Virus record (IMG/VR): IMGVR_UViG_3300043567_000723 | Length of the DNA stretch: 64,000 nt | DNA from: a virus | Taxonomy: Duplodnaviria > Caudoviricetes | Strand: one strand, 5' to 3' | Part shown: positions 20,011 to 62,707 of the stretch, piece after piece | Numbering within the stretch: the first letter of the stretch is position 1 | Layout: the number at the start of each line of letters is the position of its first letter | Made by a program: the position numbers and the translations under genes | The notes under the pieces: generated by a model | The model's input: only the letters and a program-made list of their open reading frames with translations | Databases searched by the model: none | Told to the model about the DNA's origin: nothing

Positions 20011-20050
20011 TTGTTTGTTCTGTTTGTTATCGACTTTTATAGGAGTTAAC

Positions 20051-20212
20051 ATGCGCTACAAGAACGTAACGGCTGATGGTTCTTTTTTCGCCATTGTCAA
20101 ATGGGCAGAAACCAACAACGCGCATTACGACACGCGCGTTATAAATGGTCGGATACAGATTGGCATGTCGCCATATCACTGGCGTCGTGCTGAATATCAA
20201 GGTGCAGCATGA
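20051..20212 (+). CDS. Small hypothetical protein
   Basis: AGGAG RBS before ATG 20051; coupled to the next ORF. Confidence 0.5.
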   Translation: MRYKNVTADGSFFAIVKWAETNNAHYDTRVINGRIQIGMSPYHWRRAEYQGAA

Positions 20213-20394
20213 CACTTGAACGTGCGGCCGAGCTAGTTTCAGCGCTCCGCGTAGCTGAACCAAACTCATTAGCTGCGCCTGATTTGTTCTCTCACTTTGT
20301 GGATTATTTCAATCTGCAGGGAGAAAAAAAACTAACGCAATTTGCAGAGCTGTGCGGTTTTCTTATCGCTTGCGATGTTAGTCGCGTTGGTTGA
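20209..20394 (+). CDS. Small hypothetical protein
   Basis: ATGA overlap with the previous stop. Confidence 0.45.
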   Translation: MTLERAAELVSALRVAEPNSLAAPDLFSHFVDYFNLQGEKKLTQFAELCGFLIACDVSRVG

Positions 20395-20397
20395 ACG

Positions 20398-20470
20398 GGC
20401 CCCATCGTCTAGAGGCCTAGGACACCACCCTTTCACGGTGGATACCGGGGTTCGAATCCCCGTGGGGTCA
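20398..20470 (+). tRNA. tRNA-Glu(UUC)
   Basis: GGCCCCA/TGGGGTC acceptor, CCACC-CT-TTC-AC-GGTGG, GGTTCGAATCC. Confidence 0.95.
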
Positions 20471-20607
20471 TTGATGAGTAAAACCATTGAACTGTTCCGG
20501 CTGATCCCCGGCAGGAGGTAGTGAGGTTTTAAGTTCGATTTCCCGGTATGCCTATCCACGTGGCTCGTATATCGGAAGCGACCCCTAATCGACACTCATC
20601 AATTTTT

Positions 20608-20681
20608 AACTCGGTAGCCCAATTGGCAGAGGCGGTAGACTTAGGATCTACTTGTTGTGGGTTCGACTCCCACCCGGGTTA
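20608..20681 (+). tRNA. tRNA-Leu(UAG) with short variable loop
   Basis: AACTCGG/CCGGGTT acceptor, GTAGA-CT-TAG-GA-TCTAC, 5-nt variable region TTGTT, GTGGG-TTCGACT-CCCAC. Confidence 0.9.
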
Positions 20682-20683
20682 TT

Positions 20684-20850
20684 GTCTCGGCAGCGTGTGT
20701 ACAGCGCTGCGAAATGCAGGGGGAAGTTAGTCCTCCTTAATTCGTTTGTGGGAGGGTAGCAAAGGTATTGATATCTATGGCCGGGCGCATCGGCCCGGCC
20801 GCCAAATAGATAACAATATGCCCGATAGGACCACGTCCCTGCGGCGAGAC
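20684..20850 (+). ncRNA. Unclassified structured RNA candidate (167 nt)
   Basis: Closing helix GTCTCG/CGAGAC followed by TTTTT; internal helices GCAGCG/CGCTGC, GCAGGG/CCCTGC, CCTCC/GGAGG and a compound stem GTATTG-ATCTAT-GGCCGGGC / GCCCGGCC-ATAGAT-CAATAT. Confidence 0.6.
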
Positions 20851-20871
20851 TTTTTCATCTAGGAGAGAATC

Positions 20872-21246
20872 ATGTGGGACGATGTCATAATTGGCAGCGG
20901 AAATAGTCTGAACGGCGCTTGCCTCGTGCGCAAGCTAGAGAATGCTGATATCTCTGCTAACGCCGCGTCATACTGGATCCACCAAGCCTATCTTGGCGGC
21001 AGCATGACTATTTTCAAGAACACGCTGGAAGGTGACAAGCTGAAAACCATGCTTACCGACGGCACAGCAGATGGCGACATTTCGGTTTGGCTGGAAAACG
21101 TGTTTATTGATAACGTAGAAAGCGGCCGGTTGAAAATGCTTGTGCGGTCGGCCATAATGCGGGCAGAGTCCAATGCCCGTAAAAAGAAGGCTAAGGACAT
21201 TCGCAAAGCTTTTAGCCGCGCATTCAGAAAGATTGATGAGTATTGA
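20872..21246 (+). CDS. Hypothetical protein
   Basis: AGGAG RBS; MWDDVIIGSG start; 124 aa. Confidence 0.65.
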   Translation: MWDDVIIGSGNSLNGACLVRKLENADISANAASYWIHQAYLGGSMTIFKNTLEGDKLKTMLTDGTADGDISVWLENVFIDNVESGRLKMLVRSAIMRAESNARKKKAKDIRKAFSRAFRKIDEY

Positions 21247-21254
21247 TTGATACA

Positions 21255-21596
21255 GGGGGCGTACTGGTATCGACGTATAGACGGAAACACACATTGCATT
21301 CCGTGGTTGATCGAGAGGCCACGTTAATACTCGATTAAATGTTAATTGGCACTTTCAACAGTGTCCCCGCTCTCGCTGCCTGAGCAGTGATCGGGTGAGG
21401 CGCGTGACCTCATCGCCCATCACGCTGGCCGACTGGAAGAAGTCTGACAGGCTGGACAGACAGCCAAAGATGGTGGTAGCCCACCTGACGCCGATAATCG
21501 GCTGGCTTTGTTCATTGTGTAAGCAACAATGAGACATGAATGTAGACGTGTGTGTGGAAACTATTACGGACGCGGGTTCGACTCCCGCCGCCTCCA
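21255..21596 (+). ncRNA. ssrA: tmRNA; tag reading frame 21348-21383 encodes (A)GTFNSVPALAA*
   Basis: 5-prime GGGGGCG...GGTATCGAC and 3-prime GGACGCGGGTTCGACTCCCGCCGCCTCCA tRNA-like domain; pk1-like CCGTGG/CCACG element; tag ends in the LAA degron. Confidence 0.95.
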
Positions 21597-34042: not shown

Positions 34043-36223
34043 ATGAGCGAACTTCCAAATAGTATTTCTAGCGCGGTTACGATATGGGCGGCTAAACAGG
34101 CTGACCTAAACCCTGATATTCAGCTGCAAGACCACCAGCAAAGAATCGCCGACAGAATCTCGGGCCAAGATCCCAGATTATTGGTCTATCACGGCCTAGG
34201 TTCGGGGAAATCTTTATCGGCGCTCGCTGCGGCAGAAGAAGCGCAGAACCAGAGCGGCGGGAATTACGGCGTCGTAGTCCCGGCGAGCTTGCGGGGAAAC
34301 TTCCAGAAAGAAATTGGCAAGTTCACGCATGACTCGAATCCAGAGATCATGAGCTACACGGGCTTAGCCTTGGGCAAGAACTTCCAAGAGCAGCCCGACA
34401 CGCTGATCATGGACGAAGCACATAGACTTCGCAATCCACGTTCAGGGGCAGCGCAAGCAGCAGCGCAAGCAGCGGCAAACGCCAAAAGACTCTTACTGCT
34501 CACAGGCTCGCCGATCACAAACTCGCCCAGTGACATGGCGAATTTGTTATCTATGCTGAACAACAAGCAAATTACGCCAGAAGAGTTTGAAGACCGCTAC
34601 GTAGGTTATAAGACAGTCCGGCCGGGCATCATGGGCTGGTTACGGGGCGCAAAGCCCGGCGTCAAGCCAGTCGTAAAGAACGAGGCTGAGTTACGCGCGC
34701 TCCTGAAGGGCAAAGTCGATTATCAGCCCAGCAAGACTCCCGACGGCGTGAACGTACAAGAAGAACAAGTCAAAGTGCCCTTATCAGCCGAGCAGCAAAA
34801 GATCCAAAAAGCTATTCGCACTAAAATTCCACCGGGTTTTCTCTGGAAGCTTGACCAAGAGTTTCCCCTAAGCCGCGACGAACTGGCGAAGTTAAATTCG
34901 TTTATGACGGGCATGCGCCAAGTGAGTCTGTCCACGCAGCCGTTTCGCGTGGACAAAGACCCGGCGAAAGCGTTTACACAGAGCGCGAAGTTACAAAAAG
35001 CATTTGAAGACCTGCGCGCTACGCTGAAAGAAGACAAGCGCAAAAAAGCTATTATCTACTCGAATTTTATTGACTCTGGCTTGGCCCCCTACGCGTCTGC
35101 GTTAGAAAAAGCCAAGATCCCGCATGCGTTTTTCCACGGCGGCGTCAGCCCAAAGGCGCGCCAAGCCGCCGTGGACGCATACAACACGGGCAAGCTTAAA
35201 GCTCTGCTCATTGGCCCTGCGGGCGCCGAAGGCTTGTCTACAAAAGGCACGAGTCTGATCCAGCTCTTAGATCCGCACTGGCATGAGTCGCGCAGTCAGC
35301 AGGCCAAGGGCCGTGGGTTGCGTTTTGACTCGCACGTGGGATTACCAGAAGAACTCAAGAACGTCGCAGTAAAAAGATATCTAAGTGCGTCGCAAAATCC
35401 CAGCTTGCTTGGCAAACTCATGGGCTACAAGCGCGAACGCACCGGCGACGAAGTTCTAGAAAGACTCACAGCCGAAAAAGAACAGATCAACGAAGAGTTT
35501 CGCCGGTTACTTCGCGAAGAAGGCTCGCAGTACGCAAACCAGCAGCAAGAAAAGCTTGGCGCTGCAGCTCCGCCAGACTTTCAGCCAGACTATACGCCGG
35601 GCCAGTTACACGGCATGGGTGTATACAAGTCTTTGTATGAACAAGAGGGCCCGAGATTAGCCAGCTTAGGCGAATGGAAGCCAGAATGGGTCACAGAGCA
35701 TGACCCCAAGGGCTGGCTGGAGTGGTACCAGAACTATAACGCCGGCCGTAGAATCCCCGACGAAGACATGCGGCAGATCAAGCGCTGGGCGAGTTTCAAA
35801 GCACGCCACGGCGGGCCATTTGTAAAGAAACCGTCGCCACGTAGAGGGTGGGCGCTACGAAACTGGGCGATTGACCCAGAGAAGCTAGTATCAAAATCCC
35901 GCGCGGGTGATATCAAAACCATGCTGCAAGAGTATCAAGAGAAAGAGCTGAAAAAATATCTTAAAAAACAGCCCATGCTGGCTGAAAAAACCAGCGCTAA
36001 TATCGCCGCGCCGTTAAAACTCCTGCAAAAGCATGTAATAGCTGTTAGTTCGCGGCCTCTTCCAAAGAAAAAGAAACGCCTGCTACAATATGTAACTGGT
36101 TTACCCCACCCCAAGGTGCCGGTGAAGCGCGTTATTGATAGCATCCTTGACGACGAGACTTCTCATGCCGCTCCCGATGATCTCGCCCAGCAAGCTGCCG
36201 GAGATGCTGCTGTCTCGTCGTAA
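34043..36223 (+). CDS. SNF2-like (SF2) helicase fused to a C-terminal domain of unknown function
   Basis: HGLGSGKS (motif I), MDEAH (II), LTGSP (III), EGLSTKG (V), QAKGRGLR (VI); then PDFQPDYTP...GWLEWYQNYNAGRR..DMRQIKRW domain. Confidence 0.88.
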   Translation: MSELPNSISSAVTIWAAKQADLNPDIQLQDHQQRIADRISGQDPRLLVYHGLGSGKSLSALAAAEEAQNQSGGNYGVVVPASLRGNFQKEIGKFTHDSNPEIMSYTGLALGKNFQEQPDTLIMDEAHRLRNPRSGAAQAAAQAAANAKRLLLLTGSPITNSPSDMANLLSMLNNKQITPEEFEDRYVGYKTVRPGIMGWLRGAKPGVKPVVKNEAELRALLKGKVDYQPSKTPDGVNVQEEQVKVPLSAEQQKIQKAIRTKIPPGFLWKLDQEFPLSRDELAKLNSFMTGMRQVSLSTQPFRVDKDPAKAFTQSAKLQKAFEDLRATLKEDKRKKAIIYSNFIDSGLAPYASALEKAKIPHAFFHGGVSPKARQAAVDAYNTGKLKALLIGPAGAEGLSTKGTSLIQLLDPHWHESRSQQAKGRGLRFDSHVGLPEELKNVAVKRYLSASQNPSLLGKLMGYKRERTGDEVLERLTAEKEQINEEFRRLLREEGSQYANQQQEKLGAAAPPDFQPDYTPGQLHGMGVYKSLYEQEGPRLASLGEWKPEWVTEHDPKGWLEWYQNYNAGRRIPDEDMRQIKRWASFKARHGGPFVKKPSPRRGWALRNWAIDPEKLVSKSRAGDIKTMLQEYQEKELKKYLKKQPMLAEKTSANIAAPLKLLQKHVIAVSSRPLPKKKKRLLQYVTGLPHPKVPVKRVIDSILDDETSHAAPDDLAQQAAGDAAVSS

Positions 36224-42806: not shown

Positions 42807-43511
42807 ATGGCCACATCACGTCCAGTAAGACGAGCGGAAAAGAAAGCAAAGAAAAAAAACGACCAACAAGAACGGGCAAAGGCAGCGTTAGCGCCGTGTG
42901 AAATTGAGTGGCGCACAGACAGTCAGAAGCGCGCGTGGAAAACGCTGCACGATAATGACATCACGTTCTTGCTCGGCTCTGCTGGTTCGGGCAAGACGTT
43001 TCTTGCAATGGCCTACGCCATTAACGAGATTCTGGCTAAGCGCAAAAGCCAGATTATCTTGACGCGCCCCATCGTGGACGCGGGTGAAAAACTGGGATTT
43101 CTTCCCGGTTCGTTCGGCGAAAAAGTCAATCCATACATGCAGCCGCTGTATGACACGATGGACACGCTTTTGGGTAAGTTCAACGCCAAGCGCGAGTTTG
43201 TGAACAAAGCCATCGTGTTGGCGCCGCTGTGCTACATGCGTGGCCGGACGTTTAACGACTCGATCGTTGTGTTTGACGAAGCCCAAAACGCCACGTACAT
43301 GCAGCTCAAACTTCTGCTCACGCGTTTCGGGCAGAACACGCAAATGGTGATTACAGGCGACCCGCACCAGAGCGATTTGCCGTTTTCTCCGCCGCCGTTA
43401 AACGAAGTTGTTACGAAATTAAAGGGCGTTGCCAGTATAGATACTGTGCAATTTGCCCATAATGACGTCGTGCGGCATCCGATCGTCGCGGCGGTTCTAA
43501 AGAAGCTCTGA
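42807..43511 (+). CDS. phoH: PhoH-like ATPase
   Basis: GSAGSGKTFLA, LGFLPG, YMRGRTF, DEAQN, TGDPHQSDL, DVVRHPIV. Confidence 0.95.
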   Translation: MATSRPVRRAEKKAKKKNDQQERAKAALAPCEIEWRTDSQKRAWKTLHDNDITFLLGSAGSGKTFLAMAYAINEILAKRKSQIILTRPIVDAGEKLGFLPGSFGEKVNPYMQPLYDTMDTLLGKFNAKREFVNKAIVLAPLCYMRGRTFNDSIVVFDEAQNATYMQLKLLLTRFGQNTQMVITGDPHQSDLPFSPPPLNEVVTKLKGVASIDTVQFAHNDVVRHPIVAAVLKKL

Positions 43512-43526
43512 CGCATTGGCAAAGTA

Positions 43527-43555
43527 TTGTGCATTTTTCGTTTGCCGGCTAAACT
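43527..43555 (+). promoter_or_regulatory. Candidate sigma70-type promoter
   Basis: TTGTGC-17 nt-TAAACT upstream of the ferritin-like gene. Confidence 0.3.
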
Positions 43556-43617
43556 TCGCCGACAAGCGTCATTTGCATTGTCGCTATATGGTAAATACTT
43601 TTACGTGAGGGTTGCCC

Positions 43618-44091
43618 ATGACGTTGCCGCAGTTTTTAGAAATCATGAACAGTGATTTAGCGAACGAATGGACGCACTTGCAGTTCTATCTGTATCACGC
43701 AAGCGCTGTCACGGGCTTACACGCGCACGAGTACAAAGAATTTTTAACAGAATCAGCGCAAGGCGAACTGCAGCACGTGCAGGCGTTTTTGGACCGGTTA
43801 TTTGGCTTGAATTACGCGCAGCCGTCCCAGAGCGCCAAGCCATTTGCTGTATCCAGCCGCGTTGAAGATATCATTATCGGCGCCATAAAGCTCGAAGAAG
43901 AGGTCGTGCAGAACTACACGCAACGACTGCAGCAGCTGGATGAACTAGCCGCAGCGCATCCGGTGCAGTCGGCGTATCTTAAAGTGTTCTACGAAGACCA
44001 GTTACAAGACAGCTACGAAGACTGCGAACACTTACGGCGTATTTTAAAAAACGTGACTGGCAGTATAGAGCCACGAAAAACCGGAGATTGA
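43618..44091 (+). CDS. Ferritin/bacterioferritin-like di-iron protein
   Basis: LANEW..LQFY, ELQH, LEEEVVQNY and E..EH ligand spacing of a four-helix bundle. Confidence 0.8.
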   Translation: MTLPQFLEIMNSDLANEWTHLQFYLYHASAVTGLHAHEYKEFLTESAQGELQHVQAFLDRLFGLNYAQPSQSAKPFAVSSRVEDIIIGAIKLEEEVVQNYTQRLQQLDELAAAHPVQSAYLKVFYEDQLQDSYEDCEHLRRILKNVTGSIEPRKTGD

Positions 44092-45906: not shown

Positions 45907-46941
45907 ATGGCCAAGGGTTTAGACGTCGGGACATCGTTTATCGTACTGGCTTCGGACAGCCTCGAACCGATCAGCTACACCAGCGACGATCAGGCTGAAT
46001 TTATCAATTACAAAGATTTTCGTGACGCGTTCTACGTGATTAAGCCCACTACGCCAGTGGCCACGAAGATGATCGAAAAGGGCCTGCAGGGCAAAGTCTT
46101 CGTCAAGGACAACGACGGTGCTTTTATTCTGCTGGGACAAGACGCTATTGATAAAGCCATCGAGCGCAACGAGTCGGCCAAGCGACCTATGTATCGCGGC
46201 GTTGTGAGCCCCAAGGAAAAAGAAGCCAAGCGCGTACTGGCGTTTATCCTCAAAGAAGTTGCTGGTAAAGCCACCGAGCCAGATGAGAAGCTCGTGTTCT
46301 GCATTCCGGCGCAGCCCGTGGACCAAGAAGACGACGACTTTGACGTTGGTTATCACGAAGACGTGGTCAAAGCAGTCTTGGCCGAACAGGGCTATACTGC
46401 GCGGGCTATTAACGAAGCCGAGGCGCTGTGCTACTCAGAGCTAGCCAACGATGACTACACGGGCATTGGGCTTTCGTGGGGCGCTGGCATGGTCAACGTG
46501 TGCGTGATGCTCAACGGCGAGCCGACTGTGCTGTTTTCGACCACGAAGTCTGGCGACTGGATTGATCGCATGACCGCCGTGGCGACAAACGAGCCAGACT
46601 CGGTTGTGCAGGCTGAGAAAGAGCAGGGCGAGTTCACGATTGGCGAGCCAAACGAGAACGTGATTCTGGCCGCTGTTAGCTCGTACTATGAGCGCCTTAT
46701 TGACTACACCACGAAGCAATTAGCGGCAGCGCTAAGCAATCACAAGGCGTTGCCGAAGTTCAAAGAGCCGATTTTGATAGCAATGGCGGGCGGCACGACT
46801 AAAGCCGCGGGCTTTGTGGAAATGTTCCGGCGCAAGCTCGAAGAGAATAATTTTCCGCTGCCAGTGAAAGAAGTCCGGCACGCCTACGACCCGCTGCACG
46901 CTGTCGCGCGTGGCTGTCTCATTGCTGCCAAGATTCTCTAA
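45907..46941 (+). CDS. Actin-like (ASKHA) ATPase
   Basis: GLDVGTS (phosphate 1), AINEAEA (connect 1), GLSWGAGMVNV (phosphate 2), AMAGGTT (adenosine), DPLHAVARG (connect 2). Confidence 0.85.
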   Translation: MAKGLDVGTSFIVLASDSLEPISYTSDDQAEFINYKDFRDAFYVIKPTTPVATKMIEKGLQGKVFVKDNDGAFILLGQDAIDKAIERNESAKRPMYRGVVSPKEKEAKRVLAFILKEVAGKATEPDEKLVFCIPAQPVDQEDDDFDVGYHEDVVKAVLAEQGYTARAINEAEALCYSELANDDYTGIGLSWGAGMVNVCVMLNGEPTVLFSTTKSGDWIDRMTAVATNEPDSVVQAEKEQGEFTIGEPNENVILAAVSSYYERLIDYTTKQLAAALSNHKALPKFKEPILIAMAGGTTKAAGFVEMFRRKLEENNFPLPVKEVRHAYDPLHAVARGCLIAAKIL

Positions 46942-48358: not shown

Positions 48359-48434
48359 TGCCTGATAGCTCAGTTGGTAGAGCAGGCGACTGTTAATCGC
48401 CGGGTCGTAGGTTCAAGTCCTACTCAGGCAGCCA
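48359..48434 (+). tRNA. tRNA-Asn(GUU) with encoded CCA
   Basis: TGCCTGA/TCAGGCA acceptor, GGCGA-CT-GTT-AA-TCGCC, GGTTCAAGTCC, G-CCA end. Confidence 0.95.
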
Positions 48435-48451
48435 TAAGAACGGTCTCAGCT

Positions 48452-49774
48452 ATGGACAGCTTATCTGCGCTTGATCCGCTTAGCTGGGAGCCTGACTATC
48501 TGCGGGACCATCCCGCCTACGCCGCCGGCAATGCGCTGGGCTGGCTGTACCGCGGCGACAAGCAAGCCGCGACGAATTATCCGCTCACAGGCCGCCTGTA
48601 CTTGTCTAATTCTGGCTGGCTGATGCTTTCTGTGCCCAATGCGCTTGTGCGTGGCGTGTATGACGCCATGAGCGAGCCGGGCATTGAGCTGCCTACGGCC
48701 GCCGCGTGGTCTGTCGGCGACAAGAAAGAACTACTCAACGCGCACATCTCAGTTATGACGGCCGACGAAGTGCAGCAGGTTGGTTCTGATAACATTAACG
48801 AGCGCGGCCACATGTTTGGCTACACGCTCAGCGGTTTAAAAGAAATCACGCCGCGGTCAAACACGCCAATCAGCAAAATCTGGGCGATTCAAGTAACCGC
48901 GCCAAACTTAGCTGCCTTGCGAAAAAGCTACGGCTTATCTGCGCTGCCGAATAACGACGAGCAGTTTCATATCACAGTAGCTGTGCGTAAACGCGGCGTT
49001 CTTCTCGACAACGGCAAGGCCAAGGGTTACGAAACCGCTGCCGAAAGCACCGAGGGGCGGCGGTTTAGTAACCCCATTAGCCGGGGCGCGCTAAAAGCTG
49101 CTGCCGCGGATGACACCACGTACGACTGCAGTTGCTCTGGGGCGTGCACTTGCCCCGAGACTTGCACGTGCAAACAAAATGGGCGCTGCGGCGCCCCGCA
49201 CAAAGCCGCCGCGCTTTCCCGATCGGGAGCAAAACTTTCCCGAGCGGGACAAAACGACCTGTTAGTGGGCGGAAAAGCCGACAATGTTCCCGATCGGGAA
49301 ATTTCTACACCAGCGTTAGCCGAAGGAGCTAAACATGAGCACGAACACACAGACAATGATCAAATCGCCCGCGAAATTGCCAAAGATCATCTGTCCGAAG
49401 ACCCGCGCTACTACGAAAAAGTCAAAGAAATAGAGAAAGCGAGTTACGCGGCGCAGAATTCTGCTGGCAGTGTGTACGCGCAGCAGTTTCGCAATCTTTT
49501 GAATTTCCGTGAGCCGTTTAAATACGACCACAACAAGCCGGTGTTTCAGAATGTCACCGATCACTTGTTAAAAGCCAAGCAGCGCGGCGACTTTATCATT
49601 TCTGCACGAAACAAAGCGCACATCTACCGCTCGCAGTTAGATCCGCAGTATCGGTATCAAATGGCGCAAGCGGCTATTAATGGCACGCTGCCGCAAATGA
49701 ATACAACAGACAAGATTGTGCAAATGTACGGTAATGATATCTTTGACTCAATTGGCCGCTGGGGGAAGAAATAA
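48452..49774 (+). CDS. Modular putative virion protein: 2H phosphoesterase + Cys-rich peptide + DUF5661-like module
   Basis: Two HxS/T motifs (NAHISV, FHITV); CSCSGACTCPETCTCKQNGRC; GAKHEHEHT...IAREIAKDHLSEDPRYYEK; start moved out of tRNA-Asn to ATG 48452. Confidence 0.75.
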   Translation: MDSLSALDPLSWEPDYLRDHPAYAAGNALGWLYRGDKQAATNYPLTGRLYLSNSGWLMLSVPNALVRGVYDAMSEPGIELPTAAAWSVGDKKELLNAHISVMTADEVQQVGSDNINERGHMFGYTLSGLKEITPRSNTPISKIWAIQVTAPNLAALRKSYGLSALPNNDEQFHITVAVRKRGVLLDNGKAKGYETAAESTEGRRFSNPISRGALKAAAADDTTYDCSCSGACTCPETCTCKQNGRCGAPHKAAALSRSGAKLSRAGQNDLLVGGKADNVPDREISTPALAEGAKHEHEHTDNDQIAREIAKDHLSEDPRYYEKVKEIEKASYAAQNSAGSVYAQQFRNLLNFREPFKYDHNKPVFQNVTDHLLKAKQRGDFIISARNKAHIYRSQLDPQYRYQMAQAAINGTLPQMNTTDKIVQMYGNDIFDSIGRWGKK

Positions 49775-50043: not shown

Positions 50044-51084
50044 GTGAACAACATTCATACGCTTACGACATGGCAGGCTGTACCGCAACGCATTGCGACG
50101 TTGTTACCGCTAGCGCACGCGACCAAGTTTGCACACGAGCAGGCGGCGAGTTCTGCTGGATTGCTCGCAACTTCGGTGGCGACATGGCGACCAGATCTGA
50201 ACATGATCACGCTGTATGTCCCTGACGCCATTACCAAAGAAGCTTTTGCGGTATATGAGCGCGCGGTGCAAGCCGGCGGCCGATCAACCGCAGCCGTGAC
50301 GCTCCACGGGACTGAACCTGACTGGGACGAAGAAATCGTTATTAAACGCGGCTCTTTAGTCCCGGCTCTGCCGACTGTCTGGAACACGGGCAATACGCTA
50401 CTAGGCGGCCCGACGCCGTTATCCAATGGCATCATGGCTGGCTTGCTTGCTGGTGGTACTGGCTACGGCGCTGGCATGTTAGCAGAGCAGCTGTTTCCAG
50501 AGCGTTATATTCAGCGCGGCAAGCTGCGCCGCACATTGGGCTTACTTGGCGCTGCCGGCGGCGCTGCAATGGGTGGCTTAAATGCCTACTCAAACGCAAA
50601 AGCGCTGCGCACGAGTTTTCTCAAAGGGCTGATTACAAATAACAAAACACCGGTGACGTATCCGTATCAGGTAAAAATGCAGGAGCGCGAAAAGAAGGCA
50701 TACGCGCCCTATCCCGGAGCACCCGAGCAGTCTCTGTATTCGCCGGTTGTTTCTGTGCCGCAATTCAATCAGGCCGCGTGGCAAGACGTAAACAGAGGCA
50801 TGCGGGCCGGTAATTTCCAGACATACACGCCGCCGCAATTCGCCGCAGCCACCACGGGTCTCATGACCGGTATTAGCACAAATATGCGGTCGCCCATTAT
50901 CCGCCCGATTGACGTAATTAACGGTATTGCGTCTGCCGGCGTGGGCTTGGCGACGGCGCATGTAGCCGGGCGGGCGTTATCGGCGCTTGCTGGTTTGACG
51001 CCAGAAGGTCAAAATAAGTTACAAGAAATGGGTCTCTGGGGCGGCATGATGCACGCCATGGTCCCATCGCTTTTTGGCCGTTAA
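50044..51084 (+). CDS. Gly/Ala-rich putative internal virion protein
   Basis: GLLAGGTGYGAG glycine-zipper helices; KFA and EKKAY motifs. Confidence 0.65.
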   Translation: MNNIHTLTTWQAVPQRIATLLPLAHATKFAHEQAASSAGLLATSVATWRPDLNMITLYVPDAITKEAFAVYERAVQAGGRSTAAVTLHGTEPDWDEEIVIKRGSLVPALPTVWNTGNTLLGGPTPLSNGIMAGLLAGGTGYGAGMLAEQLFPERYIQRGKLRRTLGLLGAAGGAAMGGLNAYSNAKALRTSFLKGLITNNKTPVTYPYQVKMQEREKKAYAPYPGAPEQSLYSPVVSVPQFNQAAWQDVNRGMRAGNFQTYTPPQFAAATTGLMTGISTNMRSPIIRPIDVINGIASAGVGLATAHVAGRALSALAGLTPEGQNKLQEMGLWGGMMHAMVPSLFGR

Positions 51085-51147: not shown

Positions 51148-51519
51148 ATGGCTACAAAGAAAAGTGTTGAAACAGTACGTGAAGAACTGCGGGTGTTAAA
51201 CAGCGCTGTTGACGATGTAAACGTTGACAACGGTAACTGGCTAACGCCGGAATTCTGGACAATGGCCTTCGGCGCGATCACGAATCTCGTGGCTGTTGGC
51301 GTCCTCATTGGCTGGATTGACTCGTCGCAGGCTGAGTCGCTGACCAAGGCTATAACGGCGATCGTTGGTGCCACGCAAATTGTCGTGCTGAATAGCGCGT
51401 TGATTTGGAAGTATCTGTCTGGCCGCACTGAGCTGCGTGCCCAGATGGTTGACGCCCGCTATCGGTACATGGAAGCAGTGGCTGTTGAGAAAATGCGTTC
51501 AGACCGCGCGAGCAGCTAA
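51148..51519 (+). CDS. Holin-like protein (2 TM)
   Basis: WLTPEFW..AFGAITNLVAVGVLIG and a second TM helix; charged C-terminus. Confidence 0.6.
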   Translation: MATKKSVETVREELRVLNSAVDDVNVDNGNWLTPEFWTMAFGAITNLVAVGVLIGWIDSSQAESLTKAITAIVGATQIVVLNSALIWKYLSGRTELRAQMVDARYRYMEAVAVEKMRSDRASS

Positions 51520-51522
51520 CAC

Positions 51523-51927
51523 ATGACCACGGCAGAACTGCAAAAACGAATTGATGCATCCGCAGCGTTGTCGGACTTGAAGCGCAAACTCACGGACGAG
51601 ATTGCGCTTCAAGCTGACAATAGCTTTCAGTTTGATCCGTTTCTGGTTGTAATGATTATCTCTGTGCTTGTGCAGGTGATTATTCATTGCCGCGAGCAGA
51701 ATTCAGACGATGCGATTCAACAAAGCATGCGAGAACTGCGTACGCTTCCGCCCCGTAAATTAATGCGACTACGACGCCGCTTAAACAATTTATGGCGCGA
51801 GCACTGCGCTAAGACAGGTACAGAATACACACCCGATAACCCAATCGTTGGGGCTGTGTATCGGTTAAGTGATACAATTGATGACGCTGCCGCAGCCGGC
51901 CTCGTGGAGTTGGCTGCCGCGCGTTAA
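51523..51927 (+). CDS. Hypothetical protein with central TM segment
   Basis: FQFDPFLVVMIISVLVQVIIHCR. Confidence 0.6.
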   Translation: MTTAELQKRIDASAALSDLKRKLTDEIALQADNSFQFDPFLVVMIISVLVQVIIHCREQNSDDAIQQSMRELRTLPPRKLMRLRRRLNNLWREHCAKTGTEYTPDNPIVGAVYRLSDTIDDAAAAGLVELAAAR

Positions 51928-51939
51928 TCTCTTGCAAGG

Positions 51940-52773
51940 ATGCGCATTATGGCAAGGAAGCCAACCGCACAATCAGAAGCTCATGTTATTCCTGTCGGCG
52001 AGATCCTCAAGCGTTTACACGCGCTCGGGTATTTCGGAGACAAGACACTGGCGCAGGTCAAAAAGATCAAAGGCGTCGAGTTACAGAAGGCTGTACGGGC
52101 GTTTCAGGAATTTAACGGCCTGAGCCCTACGGGCACAGTTGGCCCGAAGACCGCGCACCGGATCAACCGGCGTCGCTGCGGCCTACCTGATTTTAATATC
52201 ACGGCACCCGGCGGCGACCCGTGCAAATGGCCAATGCCCGGCGTGACGTACTACCACGATGTGCATCTGCCCGGTTTAACAGACTCGCAGGTAGCCGAAG
52301 CGTACGACATTGCATTCAGCCAGTGGGCCGAAGTGTGCAATCTGAATCCGTCGCGTGTTGATGCCGCGAACAAAGCTAATATTTATGCTCGTTCTGGCGT
52401 CGGTAAGAAGTACGGTTTAGATAACAAAGGCGGCACGTTGGCGTGGAGCGAGTTACCGTGCGGTGTTGCTGAAAACATCCAGCTTGATCAGATGTTTGAC
52501 GAGGCAGAAGACTGGTCTTTTAATATGGCCGTCGCTGTCATCTGCCACGAGCTTGGTCACGCATTGGGCCTGCCGCATTTAAATTCCGGCAATCTTATGG
52601 CGCCGTATTACGACCCAAACGTCACAAAACCGCAAGATGGTGACGTTGTAGAGATAGTGAAGTTATACGGTAAACGAACAGCGGCGTATCCCATTACGCA
52701 AGATGCCGGATTACAAATTAACGGTACGCTTACAATTAATGGTCGTCCGTATGTTCTTGTGCCGCAGACGTGA
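51940..52773 (+). CDS. Peptidoglycan-binding domain + matrixin (M10) metalloprotease
   Basis: AVRAFQEFNGLSPTGTVGPKT (PG-binding 1), RRCGLPD cysteine switch, HELGHALGLPH, LMAP Met-turn. Confidence 0.9.
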   Translation: MRIMARKPTAQSEAHVIPVGEILKRLHALGYFGDKTLAQVKKIKGVELQKAVRAFQEFNGLSPTGTVGPKTAHRINRRRCGLPDFNITAPGGDPCKWPMPGVTYYHDVHLPGLTDSQVAEAYDIAFSQWAEVCNLNPSRVDAANKANIYARSGVGKKYGLDNKGGTLAWSELPCGVAENIQLDQMFDEAEDWSFNMAVAVICHELGHALGLPHLNSGNLMAPYYDPNVTKPQDGDVVEIVKLYGKRTAAYPITQDAGLQINGTLTINGRPYVLVPQT

Positions 52774-57536: not shown

Positions 57537-60500
57537 ATGCCGACCCCTGAACTGCCCCCGTTAAAGCAACCCGATTTTGCTTCTGCGCCGCCGTTAGCGC
57601 CCGCAGCGCCAGCGCCTCTTCCGCCGCCAGCCATGCGCACGTTTGGCGATATTGGATCGATGCGGCAGAACATATTTGAGCAGGCACGTACGAGCGCGCA
57701 ATCGTTGCGGCCTCTGCAGAACGATCTTTATACGCTGCAGCTGCAAGACGTAGATTATTCCGGCCCAGAAAGTTTCACACGGGCTGATCAGAAGAAAGCT
57801 GTCCTCTCTAGAGGCACGCTTGCTCGCCGATTGCAGGGTACGTGGACGCTCGTTGATAACAAAACCGGCGAGTCGGTTGGGCAGAAGCGCGCTACGATTG
57901 CACACGTGCCGTATCTCACAGACTCTGGCACATTCGTAAACGGCGGCGTTGAATATACGCTAGCGCATCAGATGCGGTTAAAAGCCGGTGTGTTTACGCG
58001 CGAAAAAGACAACGGCGAGATTGAAGCGCATGTGAACACGCTGCCCGGTAAAGGCCGCTCGCATCGTTACTTCCTCGACCCCAAAACCGGCGTATTCAAA
58101 ATCAGCATCGGGCAGGCGCAGATCCCACTCATGCCGATGCTCAAAAGCATGGGCGTCTCTGAGCAAGATATTCGCAAGGCGTGGGGCAACGAGATTACCG
58201 CCGTCAACATGGAAAAAGGCGACGCGGGCACAATGGATAAATTGTATGCCCGCATCGTAAATAAACAGGTGGCGGGAGCTGACGCGCTGGCCAAAGCAAA
58301 GGCTGTGGCTGAAGAGTTTGCCAAGACAGAGTTAGATCCAGAAGTAACTAGACGAACACTCGGCGGCGAGCACAAGAACCTTACGCCTGACACCATTCTG
58401 GCGATTACAAAAAAACTTATCGCCGTCAATCGTCGCGAAGCCGAATCAGACGACCGCGACAACATGGTGTTTCAGTCAGTGGTCGGTCCAGAAGATTTAA
58501 TATCAGAACGGTTTACAAAAGATCGGTCTGCGTTAAATAAATTACTCTGGCGGGCCACAGCGAAGAAGTCTATCGACCACATACCCAGCGGCGTATTCGA
58601 TAAGGCTATTTCAGCTGCGCTAATCGGCTCTGGTCTCGGCTCTAGTCTTGAAGAAATCAACCCGGCCGAGATTTTCGACCACCAGACGCGCGTAACCCGC
58701 ATGGGCGAGGGCGGCATCTCGTCACTAGACGCTGTTCCGGCCGAATCGCGTAGTGTGCAGCCGTCGCATCTCGGGTTCATCGATTATCTGCGGACGCCTG
58801 AGTCCGGAAAAGTCGGCGTTGATATGCGTTTTGCTCGTGGCGCAATGAAGGGCGCTGACGGCAAGGTGTATACGCCGGTTGTAAACATGCAGACCGGCGA
58901 AACAGAATATAAAACACCGCAAGAGCTGTCAGACACACCGCTAGTGTTCCCCGGCGAAGAGAACAACAAGTTGCCGGTTGTCGCTGCGCTCGTCAACGGA
59001 AAGATGAAGTACGTTGACCGAAAAGAAGCGCAATACAGCTTGCCCAACATGGACTCGACGTTCTCCAGCCTTACAAACATGGTACCGATGAAGGCCATGA
59101 TCAAAGGCCAGCGCGTCATCATGGGTTCGCGCATGTTTACTCAAGCTTTGCCGCTTGTAGGAGCGCAAGCGCCGTTAGTGCAGTCGGCCAAGTTTGATGA
59201 CCCCAACATGTCGCACGAAGACGAAATGGGAGAAAAGCTTGGCGCCACCCGGGCAACCACTCGCGCGCAGGTAGTCGATGTAACGGCTGACGGTATTGTG
59301 CTGCGCGACAAAGACGGGAACAAGAAAACAGTCGAGTTGTATAACGAGATGCCGTACAACCGAAAAACGTTCTTGCATCAAACGCCGATGGTAAAACCCG
59401 GCGATGTTGTGCAACCCGGGCAGCTGCTGGCTAAGTCAAACTTCACAGATGATCAGGGTAGCGCGGCACTCGGGCTTAACATGCGTGTAGCTTATGTGCC
59501 GTTCCGCGGTAAAAACTACGAAGACGCCATAGTGATATCAGAATCGGCGGCAAAACGGTTGACGTCTGAGCACATGTATCAGCACGAAGCAGAGTGGGAT
59601 GAAAATACACACGTCGGGAAAAAGGCATTCACAAGTCTGTTTCCGACAGAGTACGACAAGAAAATGCTGGACAATTTTGACGATCAGGGCGCAATTAAAA
59701 AAGGCGCTGTCGTTAATTTTGGCGACCCCCTTGTTCTCGTCGCTAAGAAAAAAGATACGGTGTACGGCAAGGTGCACCGCGGTCGTGCCGGTAGTTTCAC
59801 CAACGACACTGTTACGTGGGACCATCACGCGCCCGGTATTGTAACCGACGTTATGCACACCAAAAAAGGTGTCAGCGTTGTTGTAAAAAATCAGGCGCAG
59901 ATGGACGTTGGCGATAAGCTCACCGGTCGCTTTGGTGATAAGGGCGTCATTGCCGATATCATTCCAGACGACCAGATGCCGCAAGACAAAGAAGGCAATC
60001 CGTACGAAGTGCTTGTCAGTCCGCTGGGTCTTATCAGCCGCGTGAATCCGGCGCAGGTTATAGAAGCAGCACTCGGTAAAGTTGCAGCAAAAACAGGCAA
60101 ACCATTCAAAATCAAAGACTTCGATGACCAGAATGATTTAATTGAATTTGCGCAGAAAGAACTCGACAAGAACGGGCTTTCAGACACAGAAGATTTAACA
60201 GATCCTGAGACTGGCCGAAAAATTCCGGGTGTTTTAACCGGAACGCGTTTCTTCATGAAACTGCACCATACAAGTGAGTCTAAGGCGCAGGGTCGGGCCA
60301 TGGGGGCTTATACCGCCGAAGGCACGCCAGCAAAAGGTGGCAGTGAGGGCGCGAAGCGTGTTGGCATGCTCGACCTCGGTGCTTTGTTATCGCACGGCGC
60401 TGGTAAAGTTATCCGCGACGCCAAAATGGTACGCGGGCAGGCCAATCCAGAATACTGGTCGCAGTTCATGGCTGGCTATACGCCGCCGCTGCCGAAAGTT

Positions 60501-61973
60501 CCGCATGTCTATGAAAAATTTGTTGGGCAGCTGAAAGCGTCTGGCATTAACGTCGTCCGCAGCGGCACGAAAACAAACGTCATGGCGTTGACTGACAAAG
60601 ACGTGGATCAGCTTGCCGGTCCAAGAGAGATTCAAAACTCTGAGACTGTTGACTGGAAAGGCCGGTTGAAACCAATTGCTGGCGGCCTGTTTGACGAGAG
60701 CTTAACAGGTGGTCACGGCGGCAATCGGTGGGGGAAGATAACCCTTCACGAGCCGATGCCGAATCCAGTCATGGAAGATCCGATCCGGCGTGTTCTCGGG
60801 CTAACAGAAAAGAAATTCCGCGGTATCCTCGCCGGCCAAGACAAGATTAACGATCAAACCGGTCCCAAAGCTATTCAGACGGCGCTGGCCAATATTAATC
60901 TGCCGAAAGCGATTGAGCAGGCGCGTGAAGATATCAAATCCGGCCGTAAGACACTGCGCGACGCCGCTGTTCGTAGGCTTGGGTTTTTGAAAAGCGCGGA
61001 GCAGGCCGGTGTGCATCCGAAGGACTGGATGCTGACAAAAGTTCCGGTCCTGCCGCCGCTATTTCGGCCGGTCAGCACCATGGGGCCGAAGAAGTTGCCG
61101 CTCGTTGCCGACGCGAACTACTTGTACAAAGAATTGCTCGACGCCAATGACTCGTTAAAAGAAGCGTCTGGTGCGCTTGCAGAGTACGGCGACGAGCGCC
61201 TTGGTGTATATGACGCCATGAAAGGCGTGACCGGTCTTGGTGAGCCGCAGCAGCCGAAAAACGCTGAACGCAACGTAAAGGGATTTTTACGGCATATTTT
61301 CGGCAACTCGCCCAAGTACGGTACGGTACAGCGCAAGTTACTCAGCTCGACGGTTGATCTTGTCGGCCGCGCTGTTATTACGCCGAACCCAGACCTAGAC
61401 ATGGACGAGGTTGCCCTGCCAGAAGAGAAGGCGTGGGATATCTATAAGCCTTTTGTGGTGCGCGATTTAGTTCGCCGCGGCCTTCCCAGAATGCAGGCAC
61501 TTGATGCCGTAGAGAAAAAAACGAAAGAAGCGGCAGCCGTGCTTGAGCGGCAAATGAGTTCGCGCCCGATTGTTATTAACCGCGCGCCCGTGCTGCATCG
61601 TTACGGCATGATGGCTTTCTACCCGCGGCTGACCAAGAACAAAGTCATGGAAGTCAACCCGGTTATTACCAAGGGTTTCGGCGCTGACTTTGACGGCGAC
61701 GCGATGCAATACCACGTACCCAGCACAGAAGACGCCGCTAAAGAAGCCGTGGACAAAATGCTACCCAGCAAAAATTTATTTGCGGCATCCACGTTTAAAG
61801 CGCACTACGTACCGAACAAAGATTATCAAACTGGTTTGTACGTCGCGTCCAGTAGAATTAATAACAAAGCAAAACCCCGGGTATTCCGAAACAAGCAGGA
61901 CGCTATGCAGGCGTACAGGCGTGGTGAAATAGAGGTAGACACCCCGGTTCATATTGTGGAAGATACTAAGTAA
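57537..61973 (+). CDS. rpoB/rpoC: Phage multisubunit RNA polymerase: beta fused to the N-terminal (catalytic) half of beta-prime
   Basis: Beta motifs TDSGTFVNG, RSVQPSHLG..DYLRTPES, GSRMFTQALPL, GDKLTGRFGDKGV, MKLHH; beta-prime motifs VPVLPPLFRP, NRAPVLHR and catalytic GADFDGD. Confidence 0.95.
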   Translation: MPTPELPPLKQPDFASAPPLAPAAPAPLPPPAMRTFGDIGSMRQNIFEQARTSAQSLRPLQNDLYTLQLQDVDYSGPESFTRADQKKAVLSRGTLARRLQGTWTLVDNKTGESVGQKRATIAHVPYLTDSGTFVNGGVEYTLAHQMRLKAGVFTREKDNGEIEAHVNTLPGKGRSHRYFLDPKTGVFKISIGQAQIPLMPMLKSMGVSEQDIRKAWGNEITAVNMEKGDAGTMDKLYARIVNKQVAGADALAKAKAVAEEFAKTELDPEVTRRTLGGEHKNLTPDTILAITKKLIAVNRREAESDDRDNMVFQSVVGPEDLISERFTKDRSALNKLLWRATAKKSIDHIPSGVFDKAISAALIGSGLGSSLEEINPAEIFDHQTRVTRMGEGGISSLDAVPAESRSVQPSHLGFIDYLRTPESGKVGVDMRFARGAMKGADGKVYTPVVNMQTGETEYKTPQELSDTPLVFPGEENNKLPVVAALVNGKMKYVDRKEAQYSLPNMDSTFSSLTNMVPMKAMIKGQRVIMGSRMFTQALPLVGAQAPLVQSAKFDDPNMSHEDEMGEKLGATRATTRAQVVDVTADGIVLRDKDGNKKTVELYNEMPYNRKTFLHQTPMVKPGDVVQPGQLLAKSNFTDDQGSAALGLNMRVAYVPFRGKNYEDAIVISESAAKRLTSEHMYQHEAEWDENTHVGKKAFTSLFPTEYDKKMLDNFDDQGAIKKGAVVNFGDPLVLVAKKKDTVYGKVHRGRAGSFTNDTVTWDHHAPGIVTDVMHTKKGVSVVVKNQAQMDVGDKLTGRFGDKGVIADIIPDDQMPQDKEGNPYEVLVSPLGLISRVNPAQVIEAALGKVAAKTGKPFKIKDFDDQNDLIEFAQKELDKNGLSDTEDLTDPETGRKIPGVLTGTRFFMKLHHTSESKAQGRAMGAYTAEGTPAKGGSEGAKRVGMLDLGALLSHGAGKVIRDAKMVRGQANPEYWSQFMAGYTPPLPKVPHVYEKFVGQLKASGINVVRSGTKTNVMALTDKDVDQLAGPREIQNSETVDWKGRLKPIAGGLFDESLTGGHGGNRWGKITLHEPMPNPVMEDPIRRVLGLTEKKFRGILAGQDKINDQTGPKAIQTALANINLPKAIEQAREDIKSGRKTLRDAAVRRLGFLKSAEQAGVHPKDWMLTKVPVLPPLFRPVSTMGPKKLPLVADANYLYKELLDANDSLKEASGALAEYGDERLGVYDAMKGVTGLGEPQQPKNAERNVKGFLRHIFGNSPKYGTVQRKLLSSTVDLVGRAVITPNPDLDMDEVALPEEKAWDIYKPFVVRDLVRRGLPRMQALDAVEKKTKEAAAVLERQMSSRPIVINRAPVLHRYGMMAFYPRLTKNKVMEVNPVITKGFGADFDGDAMQYHVPSTEDAAKEAVDKMLPSKNLFAASTFKAHYVPNKDYQTGLYVASSRINNKAKPRVFRNKQDAMQAYRRGEIEVDTPVHIVEDTK

Positions 61974-61996: not shown

Positions 61997-62707
61997 ATGT
62001 TCACTGTTAACCCCGAACTAATCGCGCTGGCAAAGGCGCGATTTGAGAAGTCTGCGCTCGTGCCCGGTGCCGCCGTTGATCCGGCTGCGGCTGGGGCTGC
62101 ACCGCCAGTAGACCCTGCGACCATGGGAGCAGTGCCGCCGGTTGACCCCGCGATGGCCGGCGCCGCGCCCCCGATGGATCCCGCGGCAATGGGTATGCCT
62201 GCTGCGCCTGCGCCCATGCCTGCTGCTCCGGCGGCGCCGGGTGCGGCCCCCGCATCTGGAATGCAGCAAAAGTTAAAACCAGAACAAATGATGCAGATGC
62301 TCGATTACCGGCTTTACAACATGCAGCAGCAGCTTACCGCGATTATGAACGCGATGGGCGTGCAAGTTCCGCCGGAATCGCTCGTCCTGCCGCCGGGTAC
62401 TACTGGCGCCCCGCCCGCTGAAACAGCGCTGCCGGGTGGATCGATGGCTCCTCCGCCGCCGGATCAAAGCGCGCAGGGTGGCATGCAGCCGCCCGGTGGC
62501 CCGCTTCCGCCGGGTGGTCCGCTCCCGCCGAACGCCGCACCGCAAGATCCGACAGCGAAGGTTGCTTGGTGGAACGTAGAAGCGGAAAAGCCGGCGTCGT
62601 ACATCGGCTATCCTGTGCCGCAAAACCCGAATCAACCAACTGACGTGCAGATTAAAGCAAATGCCATATCCGCCATGATTCGGAGTCTTGCGGGCAATGC
62701 TGGTTAA
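61997..62707 (+). CDS. Pro/Ala/Met-rich low-complexity protein between the RNAP genes
   Basis: GGAGG RBS; FEKSAL and TAKVAW motifs; PxxPAAMG repeats. Confidence 0.7.
   Translation: MFTVNPELIALAKARFEKSALVPGAAVDPAAAGAAPPVDPATMGAVPPVDPAMAGAAPPMDPAAMGMPAAPAPMPAAPAAPGAAPASGMQQKLKPEQMMQMLDYRLYNMQQQLTAIMNAMGVQVPPESLVLPPGTTGAPPAETALPGGSMAPPPPDQSAQGGMQPPGGPLPPGGPLPPNAAPQDPTAKVAWWNVEAEKPASYIGYPVPQNPNQPTDVQIKANAISAMIRSLAGNAG

What the first reader, a model, noticed from the sequence alone, without database searches (positions are those of the whole stretch)
48452..49774. 2H phosphoesterase packaged in a modular protein: candidate virion-delivered anti-CBASS nuclease
Seen: KQA, then a domain with both HxS/T motifs (AHISV, FHITV), then KAA, a metallothionein-like 7-Cys peptide, KAA and a DUF5661-like module. 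Established: T4 Acb1 is a 2H phosphoesterase that degrades cyclic-nucleotide immune signals; other 2H enzymes process RNA 2',3'-cyclic phosphates. Inference: an anti-defence or tRNA-repair enzyme pre-loaded in the capsid.
Basis: partly seen in the sequence, partly recalled or inferred. Interest (0 to 1): 0.68.

Follow-up and report, generated by a model that had tools for sequence, protein, structure and literature searches.

The report
Modular phage 2H phosphodiesterase cargo protein
This gene of an uncultured ~200-kb bacterial virus encodes an intact nucleotide-cutting enzyme joined to swappable modules by a short motif that also marks the virus's head proteins, so it is probably packed in the virus head and cut apart there, but it is not an Acb1-family anti-CBASS enzyme and its target is unknown.

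Summary
Observation confirmed. A confident model (pLDDT 92.7) has the 2H fold with both HxS/T motifs intact. The domain is Pfam 2H-SAK, not Acb1: 0 of 140 relatives hit the Acb1 model, profile comparison gives 3%, and nothing aligns in sequence order with Acb1's adenine-reading Glu or lid. Packaging and cleavage are inferred, not shown. Lys-x-Ala/Gly/Ser precedes the domain in 136 of 138 diverse relatives. Lys-x-Ala marks the other module joints, is twofold enriched in head genes and sits in the capsid N-terminus. Relatives swap Nudix, pyrophosphatase, SNF2 and DNA-ligase modules behind the 2H domain, as in known polyvalent proteins. The gene is single-copy in 16 of 19 near-complete relatives, in which no RNA ligase was detected, weakening tRNA repair. 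Best reading: a head-loaded, protease-matured phosphodiesterase against cyclic-nucleotide signals (about 0.4); CBASS specifically about 0.25. Virion-borne 2H domains were predicted in 2017 and diverse phage 2H enzymes assayed in 2025. This scan already reported the same gene in other genomes. New variant of a known kind.

The parts
48359..48434 (+). tRNA-Asn(GTT), ending 17 nt before the start codon; usual neighbour but not fixed
   Evidence: ARAGORN; adjacent in 37 of 80 related loci, elsewhere in the locus in 27, not in the locus in 16
48452..49774 (+). Whole ORF, 440 aa, modular 2H-SAK polyvalent protein
   Evidence: 434 homologs; 867 clusters at 50% identity carry the domain
48452..48568 (+). 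N-terminal leader, residues 1-39, ending in KQA (48560-48568); candidate head-targeting propeptide (inferred)
   Evidence: K37 114, Q38 109, A39 113 of 121 homologs; K-x-[AGS] in 136 of 138 diverse representatives; leader profile test
48575..49024 (+). 2H phosphoesterase domain of the 2H-SAK family, residues 42-191, probably circularly permuted relative to Acb1/LigT (inferred)
   Evidence: Pfam PF22547; model pLDDT 92.7; structure searches
48743..48751 (+). First catalytic motif H98-I-S100
   Evidence: H in 120 and S/T in 119 of 121 homologs
48968..48976 (+). Second catalytic motif H173-I-T175
   Evidence: H in 120 and T in 120 of 121 homologs
49094..49102 (+). KAA joint, residues 215-217, closing the 2H module
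   Evidence: K 110, A 112 of 121; present before the Cys module in 59 of 59
49118..49192 (+). Optional 7-Cys peptide (CxC-x3-CxC-x3-CxC-x5-C), probably metal-binding (inferred)
   Evidence: in 59 of 121 close and 1 of 130 distant homologs; no metallothionein Pfam hit, only chance-level knottin hits
49202..49210 (+). KAA joint, residues 251-253, closing the Cys module
   Evidence: KxA follows the Cys module in 52 of 59 homologs, 31% in shuffles
49256..49432 (+). DUF5661 module, residues 269-327, His/Glu-rich, function unknown
   Evidence: Pfam PF18905 E 5.9e-10; 121 of 121 close and 5 of 130 distant homologs; no PDB or literature hit
49436..49444 (+). Degenerate joint K329-A-S (KxA in most relatives)
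   Evidence: KxA before the last module in 99 of 121; columns 329-331
49469..49759 (+).
   Evidence: 121 of 121 close and 11 of 130 distant homologs; within 25 residues of the C-terminus in 138 of 141; no significant PDB or PHROG match

Best explanation
A polyvalent phage effector that is made late as a precursor, drawn into the prohead by its N-terminal leader, and cut by the phage's prohead protease at Lys-x-Ala joints into separate modules that enter the next host with the DNA. The constant module is a 2H-SAK phosphodiesterase that uses H98/S100 and H173/T175 for metal-independent hydrolysis of a cyclic phosphodiester. Its most likely target is a small cyclic nucleotide made by host defence (cyclic oligonucleotide, 2',3'-cNMP or ADP-ribose cyclic phosphate). 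Shown: ORF, family, fold model, intact motifs, conserved joints, module swapping. Inferred: late expression and catalysis (about 0.9), packaging and cleavage (about 0.65). Guessed from context: signal-nucleotide substrate (about 0.45), CBASS signals in particular (about 0.25).
For: Fold and motifs. Joints: K-x-[AGS] 6-16 residues before the domain's first conserved Gly in 136/138 and just after the second motif in 98/124 diverse relatives, against 9.5% inside the domain and 36% in shuffles; KxA at the other borders in 53-100% against 0-2% inside modules and 26-31% in shuffles. Head link: KxA 63 observed against 31 expected in the head cluster, ratio 0.6-1.2 elsewhere; capsid candidate (atlas 0.98) has KxA near residue 30 in 117/120 homologs, and a varying middle residue in the most distant ones down to 56% identity; a protease-like gene lies in that cluster (atlas 0.91 to Peptidase S77, a lead). 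Leader: a profile of the 12 residues before K from 107 distant 2H proteins ranks the leaders of ORFs 39669 and 38893 first among 246 KxA sites, with 4 N-terminal sites in the top 7 (P 7e-5). Swapping: the SNF2 module of window ORF 34043 is fused into two 2H proteins starting exactly at KxA. Cargo: InPase 16, Nudix 13, C39 peptidase 8, LigD 3'-phosphoesterase 6 of 130; InPase, SWI2/SNF2 and 2H are described polyvalent-protein domains (PMC5512222). No RNA ligase partner detected. Precedent for three-residue protease codes on head proteins: SPN3US A-X-E (PMC10052503). Several structural groups of viral 2H enzymes cleave immune messengers (bioRxiv 10.1101/2025.08.21.671373).
Against: No cut, particle or activity has been observed. 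The gene is not in the head cluster; it lies beside an actin-like gene and putative lysis genes. It is near-core and conserved (16/19 genomes; about 50% identity among distant relatives), which by general experience is unusual for a dedicated anti-defence gene. Its closest full-length structural kin are 2H-SAK domains, including those in fungal proteins fused to an RNA ligase. Acb1 activity appears about 15 min into infection, matching the late onset of CBASS (PMC9117128), which fits a pre-loaded enzyme poorly. Two tested structural groups of viral 2H enzymes cut none of the messengers. KxA enrichment in distant cargo is only 1.21-fold overall. The leader of this particular protein is three residues out of register with the distant consensus and is not among the top-scoring sites. 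Close homologs are not independent samples.
Confidence: 0.4

Rival explanations
1. The same packaged or late-made 2H module acts on RNA ends: a 2',3'-cyclic phosphodiesterase or Usb1-like trimming nuclease that heals or matures tRNA or other RNA, perhaps with a host ligase.
For: Usb1 is the best Foldseek match (E 6e-3) and within 1 Z of Acb1. 2H-SAK domains sit with an RNA ligase in fungal multi-enzyme proteins that match the model over residues 4-139. tRNA-Asn lies in 64 of 80 related loci, adjacent in 37. A basic patch R179-K180-R181 follows the second motif. Near-core conservation suits a housekeeping task.
Against: No PF09414 ligase or RtcB in 19 near-complete genomes, with controls ringing; no Rnl1 either, though that search had no positive control. 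The extended ThpR motifs HxTxxF and HxTxxR (PMC4201822) are not met. The tRNA moves or is missing in many relatives.
Confidence: 0.3
2. A true functional equivalent of Acb1: it cleaves CBASS cyclic di- and trinucleotides (3'3'-cGAMP, cAAA) and rescues the phage from CBASS, whether or not it is packaged.
For: Acb1 (7t26, 7t27) is the top solved match, Z 7.7 and 7.4, rmsd 3.2 over 104-105 residues. Unrelated 2H cores have gained cGAMP cleavage repeatedly and lids differ in position.
Against: Z is within about 1 of Usb1 and LigT-like entries; 10% identity; hhalign probability 3%; 0 of 140 members hit Pfam Acb1; no in-order counterpart of Acb1 E141, W147 or the lid; host and its CBASS content unknown.
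Confidence: 0.25
3. The protein is not packaged or cut. KxA is a linker or binding motif, and the 2H enzyme works as an intact cytoplasmic protein late in infection.
For: No direct evidence of cleavage; three KxA in this protein equal the chance number; the gene lies outside the head cluster; the site right after the domain is degenerate here (K191-G-Y).
Against: K and A fixed with a free middle residue at module borders and in the capsid N-terminus; enrichment confined to the head cluster; fusion breakpoints fall on the motif.
Confidence: 0.3
4. The 2H domain is mainly a non-catalytic anchor that carries variable cargo into the head.
For: It is N-terminal in nearly all of 150 representatives of 156-2046 aa, while the cargo is unrelated between groups.
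Against: Both HxS/T motifs are kept almost without exception; several genomes keep the domain in open frames of only 215-255 aa, nearly without cargo.
Confidence: 0.07

Closest known systems
Pfam 2H-SAK (PF22547, Swiss Army Knife 2H phosphoesterase domain)
   Same: All 140 aligned members match it; best atlas match is a 2H-SAK cluster, TM 0.75 over residues 3-145.
   Different: Fungal carriers are fused to RNA ligase, a P-loop domain and a phosphatase; this phage branch has a KxA-bounded leader and variable cargo, and no RNA ligase was detected in its genomes. I found no biochemical study of the family.
Phage polyvalent proteins (Iyer et al. 2017, PMC5512222)
   Same: Multi-domain, mix-and-match proteins with 2H, InPase and SWI2/SNF2 domains, predicted to be virion-delivered; their 2H domains were proposed to be RNases or to degrade immune nucleotides and were never seen with RNA ligases.
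   Different: No MuF or portal fusion in the Pfam census; modules are joined by a conserved putative head-protease motif, with a constant first module and, in the close clade, a constant last module.
T4/FBB1 Acb1 (gp57B; Pfam PF23474; PDB 7T26, 7T27; PMC9117128)
   Same: 2H fold, two His-x-Thr/Ser motifs about 70-75 residues apart, phage-encoded; top solved match by Z.
   Different: Acb1 is a stand-alone 152-aa protein, active from about 15 min, with a C-terminal lid, W147 and E141. This domain ends after the second motif, has an extra N-terminal strand and no significant sequence similarity.
Diverse viral 2H phosphodiesterases (Doherty et al., bioRxiv 10.1101/2025.08.21.671373; PDE-9, PDB 9Q2Y)
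   Same: Phage 2H enzymes outside Acb1, 13 of 75 in multi-domain proteins, with differing messenger specificity.
   Different: The text does not mention 2H-SAK, permutation or virion delivery; this family has no match among 50,697 GenBank phage records.
Protease-matured head proteins of SPN3US/phiKZ (A-X-E) and T4 internal proteins
   Same: A three-residue motif with a free middle position marks capsid and internal head proteins for the prohead protease (PMC10052503).
   Different: There the cuts remove terminal propeptides at a Glu motif; here a Lys-x-Ala motif would also separate several folded modules of one polyprotein.

Membership tests
2H phosphoesterase superfamily | Two His-x-Thr/Ser motifs | tested here: met
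   H98-I-S100 and H173-I-T175, each conserved in 119-120 of 121 homologs
2H phosphoesterase superfamily | 2H fold | tested here: met
   Model pLDDT 92.7, pTM 0.85; the 21 best of 48,161 chains are 2H-fold proteins, Z 4.2-7.4, above unrelated rows at 3.8 or less
2H phosphoesterase superfamily | Phosphodiesterase activity | not testable with these tools
   Needs an assay
2H-SAK (PF22547) | Score above the Pfam cut-off | tested here: met
   41.4 bits against 27; 140 of 140 members match
2H-SAK (PF22547) | Structural match over the whole domain, including the N-terminal strand | tested here: met
   TM 0.75 over residues 3-145; LigT and Acb1-containing clusters align only from residue 12-13, TM 0.56
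Swiss Army Knife RNA-repair proteins | RNA ligase in the same protein or genome | tested here: not met
   No RNA ligase family among cargo of 130 representatives; PF09414 and RtcB absent from 19 near-complete genomes with controls ringing; Rnl1 search empty but uncontrolled
Acb1 (PF23474) | Sequence membership | tested here: not met
   0 of 140 members match at E 0.01; hhalign against T4 gp57B probability 3.3%
Acb1 (PF23474) | C-terminal lid (145-152), W147 and adenine-reading E141 | tested here: not met
   Structural alignments end at Acb1 residue 115, the second motif; the model has no strand after residue 139. A spatial equivalent from the N-terminal strand or the tail could not be checked without coordinates.
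Acb1 (PF23474) | Cleaves 3'3'-cGAMP, cUA, cAAA and rescues phage from CBASS | not testable with these tools
   Needs TLC/HPLC and plaque assays
LigT/ThpR RNA 2',3'-cyclic phosphodiesterase | Extended motifs HxTxxF and HxTxxR (PMC4201822) | tested here: not met
   H98+5 is Thr, H173+5 is Val; the conserved Arg179 is one residue later; only 6 of 140 members match the LigT model weakly
Phage polyvalent proteins | Several unrelated effector domains in variable combinations in one chain | tested here: met
   Nine architectures among 121 close homologs; InPase, Nudix, C39, LigD-PE, DNA ligase, SNF2 among distant ones
Phage polyvalent proteins | Virion association (MuF/portal fusion, head-gene context or proteomics) | tested here: inconclusive
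   No MuF/portal fusion, not in the head cluster; indirect support from the shared KxA motif and leader
Prohead-protease substrates | Motif shared with capsid and scaffold proteins and enriched in head genes | tested here: met
   protease identity is a lead only
Prohead-protease substrates | Demonstrated cleavage | not testable with these tools
   Needs N-terminomics or an in vitro digest
Metallothionein (Cys module) | Match to a metallothionein family model | tested here: inconclusive
   No Pfam metallothionein hit for ten 32-35-residue peptides; such short queries have little power
Metallothionein (Cys module) | Metal-thiolate cluster binding | not testable with these tools
   Needs metal analysis of the peptide

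The most novel reading that the evidence does not exclude
A large uncultured phage clade loads a polyprotein into its head and lets the prohead protease cut it at Lys-x-Ala into several independent enzymes, led by a topologically distinct, never-assayed 2H family that destroys bacterial immune nucleotides from the moment of injection: a virion-delivered anti-signalling nuclease on a programmable cargo platform.
Probability: 0.25. Interest if true: 0.75.

Novelty: new variant of a known kind. Interest (0 to 1): 0.45.

Why it matters
The phage nucleases against immune nucleotides described in the papers read here are made during infection. One carried in the particle would act before phage gene expression and would support the 2017 prediction for 2H domains in polyvalent proteins. 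The family is large (867 clusters at 50% identity), has no cultured representative in the phage collection searched and no assay that I could find, and its 150-residue domain is easy to express and test. The KxA joints offer a natural example of modular capsid cargo. The enzyme class and the general idea are already known, which limits the surprise.

Tried and rejected
TTG start at 48374: rejected, inside the tRNA. First fold from 40 close sequences: pLDDT 55.8, discarded. Sequence searches of the PDB: nothing significant for the protein, the 2H profile, DUF5661 or the last module. PHROGs and NCBIfam: no family for the protein. GenBank phages: no match. Covariation analysis to test the permutation: dominated by gap columns, uninformative. 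Promoter and terminator scan: at chance level. RNA runs: no RNA holder listed. DUF5661: no paper found. The paper behind the Swiss Army Knife name (Burroughs and Aravind 2016, my recollection) is not held, so its content was not checked. Searches for Acb1 and Rnl1 in 28 related genomes were empty but had no ringing control; the LigT-like model was also empty, with controls. Membership of the phage in the mReC clade (PMC7481178) was not established. The host was not identified; one homolog carries a Sphingorhabdus label on a 203-kb contig that is probably a mis-binned phage. Knottin reading of the Cys peptide: chance-level only. No complex prediction was run, since no binding claim is made.

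Full report
Setting. The window lies in a 157.5-kb viral contig, 77% complete; the identical protein also occurs on a 207.5-kb contig. The genome carries its own multi-subunit RNA polymerase gene, a tail sheath and a head cluster beyond the window with a major capsid candidate (atlas score 0.98) and a prohead-protease-like gene (0.91 to Peptidase S77, a lead). Complete relatives are about 170-235 kb. No GenBank phage matches the 2H domain. The host is unknown.

Observation. tRNA-Asn ends 17 nt upstream, which rules out the longer TTG start. All listed motifs are present. Pfam gives 2H-SAK (E 2e-10) and DUF5661 (E 6e-10). A further module, residues 340-436, is present in all 121 close homologs and stays at the C-terminus; it has no significant family or structure match.

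The 2H domain. A model from 140 diverse sequences reached pLDDT 92.7. The 21 best matches among 48,161 solved chains are 2H-fold proteins. Acb1 leads by Z (7.7, rmsd 3.2, 105 residues, 10% identity), followed within about one unit by Usb1 (6.8), archaeal and Thermus LigT-like proteins (6.6) and PDE-9 (6.4); Foldseek puts Usb1 first. The fold therefore shows the superfamily, not the substrate. Nearly every alignment covers model residues 12-140 and stops at or shortly after the target's second HxT strand, residue 115 in Acb1. The model's first strand (4-10) is matched by 2H-SAK relatives and some unnamed viral clusters (TM 0.75 over 3-145), not by LigT or Acb1-containing clusters (TM 0.56, from residue 12-13). 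I infer a circular permutation in which the usual last strand has moved to the N-terminus; I could not inspect coordinates. Acb1's adenine-reading E141, W147 and lid 145-152 (PMC9117128) thus have no in-order counterpart. Sequence tests agree: none of 140 members hits the Pfam Acb1 model, and hhalign against T4 gp57B gives 3%. The ThpR motifs HxTxxF/HxTxxR are not met either. This lowers 'it is an Acb1', not 'it may work like one': lids have arisen at either end, and several unrelated 2H groups cleave messengers while two cleave none tested.

The joints. In this protein alone three KxA are expected by chance (3.2). Across relatives they are not. Among cluster representatives at 50% identity, K-x-[A/G/S] lies just before the domain in 136 of 138 and just after it in 98 of 124, against 9.5% of windows inside the domain and 36% after shuffling. 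In close homologs KxA precedes the Cys module in 59 of 59, follows it in 52 of 59, precedes DUF5661 in 65 of 122, follows it in 89 of 122 and precedes the last module in 99 of 121, against 0-2% inside modules. Close homologs are related, so those counts are not independent. Genome-wide the motif is 2.0-fold enriched in the head cluster and 0.6-1.2-fold elsewhere. The capsid candidate has it near residue 30 in 117 of 120 homologs, and distant capsids down to 56% identity keep K and A while the middle residue varies. That is the pattern of a head-protease code such as A-X-E in SPN3US, but no cut has been shown.

The leader. A profile of the 12 residues before the lysine, built only from 107 distant 2H proteins, was scored on all 246 KxA sites of this genome. 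The two best are the N-terminal leaders of ORFs 39669 and 38893; four of the top seven are N-terminal sites, although only 11 of 246 sites are (P 7e-5), and the other three lie in head-cluster proteins. The 2H family therefore shares the Y-x-x-G-x-A-x5-K-x-A leader of other candidate cargo proteins. In this protein the lysine is three residues further along, so its own site does not rank in the top 15.

Cargo. Behind the constant 2H domain the content varies from almost nothing to about 1900 residues. Close homologs show nine architectures, with Nudix and other inserts between 2H, DUF5661 and the last module, bounded by KxA. Distant ones carry InPase (16 of 130), Nudix (13), C39 peptidase (8), LigD 3'-phosphoesterase (6), DNA ligase (3) and SNF2 (2). 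The SNF2 helicase that stands alone at window 34043 is fused into two 2H proteins, and both alignments begin exactly at KxA (positions). InPase, SWI2/SNF2 and 2H are described domains of phage polyvalent proteins, for whose 2H domains an RNase or anti-nucleotide-signal role was proposed in 2017.

Distribution. In 80 viral loci the gene is single-copy and in conserved order, between a small membrane-protein gene and a putative lysis block, near an actin-like gene. Among genomes picked by the capsid gene, 16 of 19 near-complete ones have it: 10 of 10 close and 6 of 9 distant. It is near-core but apparently dispensable, and several genomes keep it in frames of 215-255 aa, so the domain is selected for itself. 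No RNA ligase of the PF09414 type and no RtcB was found in those 19 genomes; the Rnl1 search was also empty but uncontrolled. A phage-encoded tRNA-repair pathway is therefore unlikely, although work on RNA ends with host partners remains open, and tRNA-Asn is a frequent neighbour.

Cys peptide. Seven cysteines in three CxC pairs plus one, present in half of the close homologs and bounded by KxA on both sides. It recalls small metallothioneins (own knowledge), but no such model matched. Metal binding is an inference.

Mechanism and odds. Precursor made late (inferred from position), targeted by its leader, cut at KxA during head maturation, modules delivered with the DNA: about 0.65. Active phosphodiesterase: about 0.9. 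Substrate: small cyclic nucleotide signal 0.45 (CBASS-type 0.25), RNA ends 0.3-0.35, other the rest. Against a CBASS-specific role are the late onset of CBASS and of Acb1 activity, the strong conservation, and kinship with ligase-fused 2H-SAK domains.

Novelty. The domain family is catalogued, virion-borne 2H anti-signal enzymes were predicted, and phage 2H diversity has been assayed. What is not in the papers I could read is a near-core 2H-SAK branch built as a KxA-jointed polyprotein with a shared leader. Earlier notes of this scan describe the KxA code in this genome and the same gene in other genomes; my family, fold, joint and enrichment results came before I read them. Verdict: new variant of a known kind, interest 0.45.

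Noticed in passing
window 45907-46941: Actin-like gene (Pfam Volactin PF25216, E 1.3e-61), found near the 2H gene in 75 of 80 related loci.
   Followed up: partly
window 34043-36223: SNF2 helicase ORF whose helicase part starts at KQA (residue 18); homologous modules are fused into 2H proteins P0262 and P0220 starting at KxA.
   Followed up: partly
window 50044-51084: Downstream ORF whose homolog is fused to the 2H domain in P0141 and P0248, and partly in P0193; likely part of the same cargo pool.
   Followed up: partly
P0145, P0206, P0228, P0266 (distant homologs): Carry a LigD 3'-phosphoesterase plus ATP-dependent DNA ligase and/or OB domains behind the 2H domain: a possibly virion-borne DNA end-repair enzyme.
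   Followed up: no
window 18309-21596: Five tRNA genes (Lys, Leu, Val, Glu, Leu) and a tmRNA with tag GTFNSVPALAA.
   Followed up: no
window 57537-61973: 1478-aa RNA polymerase gene matching two consecutive PHROG polymerase families, apparently beta fused to part of beta-prime; relation to the mReC clade not tested.
   Followed up: no
window 51148-52773: Holin-like ORF (weak hit) and a peptidoglycan-binding plus matrixin (M10) metallopeptidase, a candidate endolysin, conserved in about 65 of 80 loci.
   Followed up: no
window 42807-44091: PhoH-like ATPase and a ferritin-like ORF, judged by eye from motifs only.
   Followed up: no
window 61997-62707: ORF whose N-terminal KSA site scores among the top leader-like sites: a further candidate cargo protein.
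   Followed up: no
G008, G018, G020: Three near-complete relatives without a detectable 2H-SAK gene and with no Acb1 or LigT-like replacement found.
   Followed up: partly
window 48435-48451: Only 17 nt, with no obvious Shine-Dalgarno sequence, separate the tRNA's encoded CCA end from the ATG; tRNA processing could set the message's 5' end.
   Followed up: no
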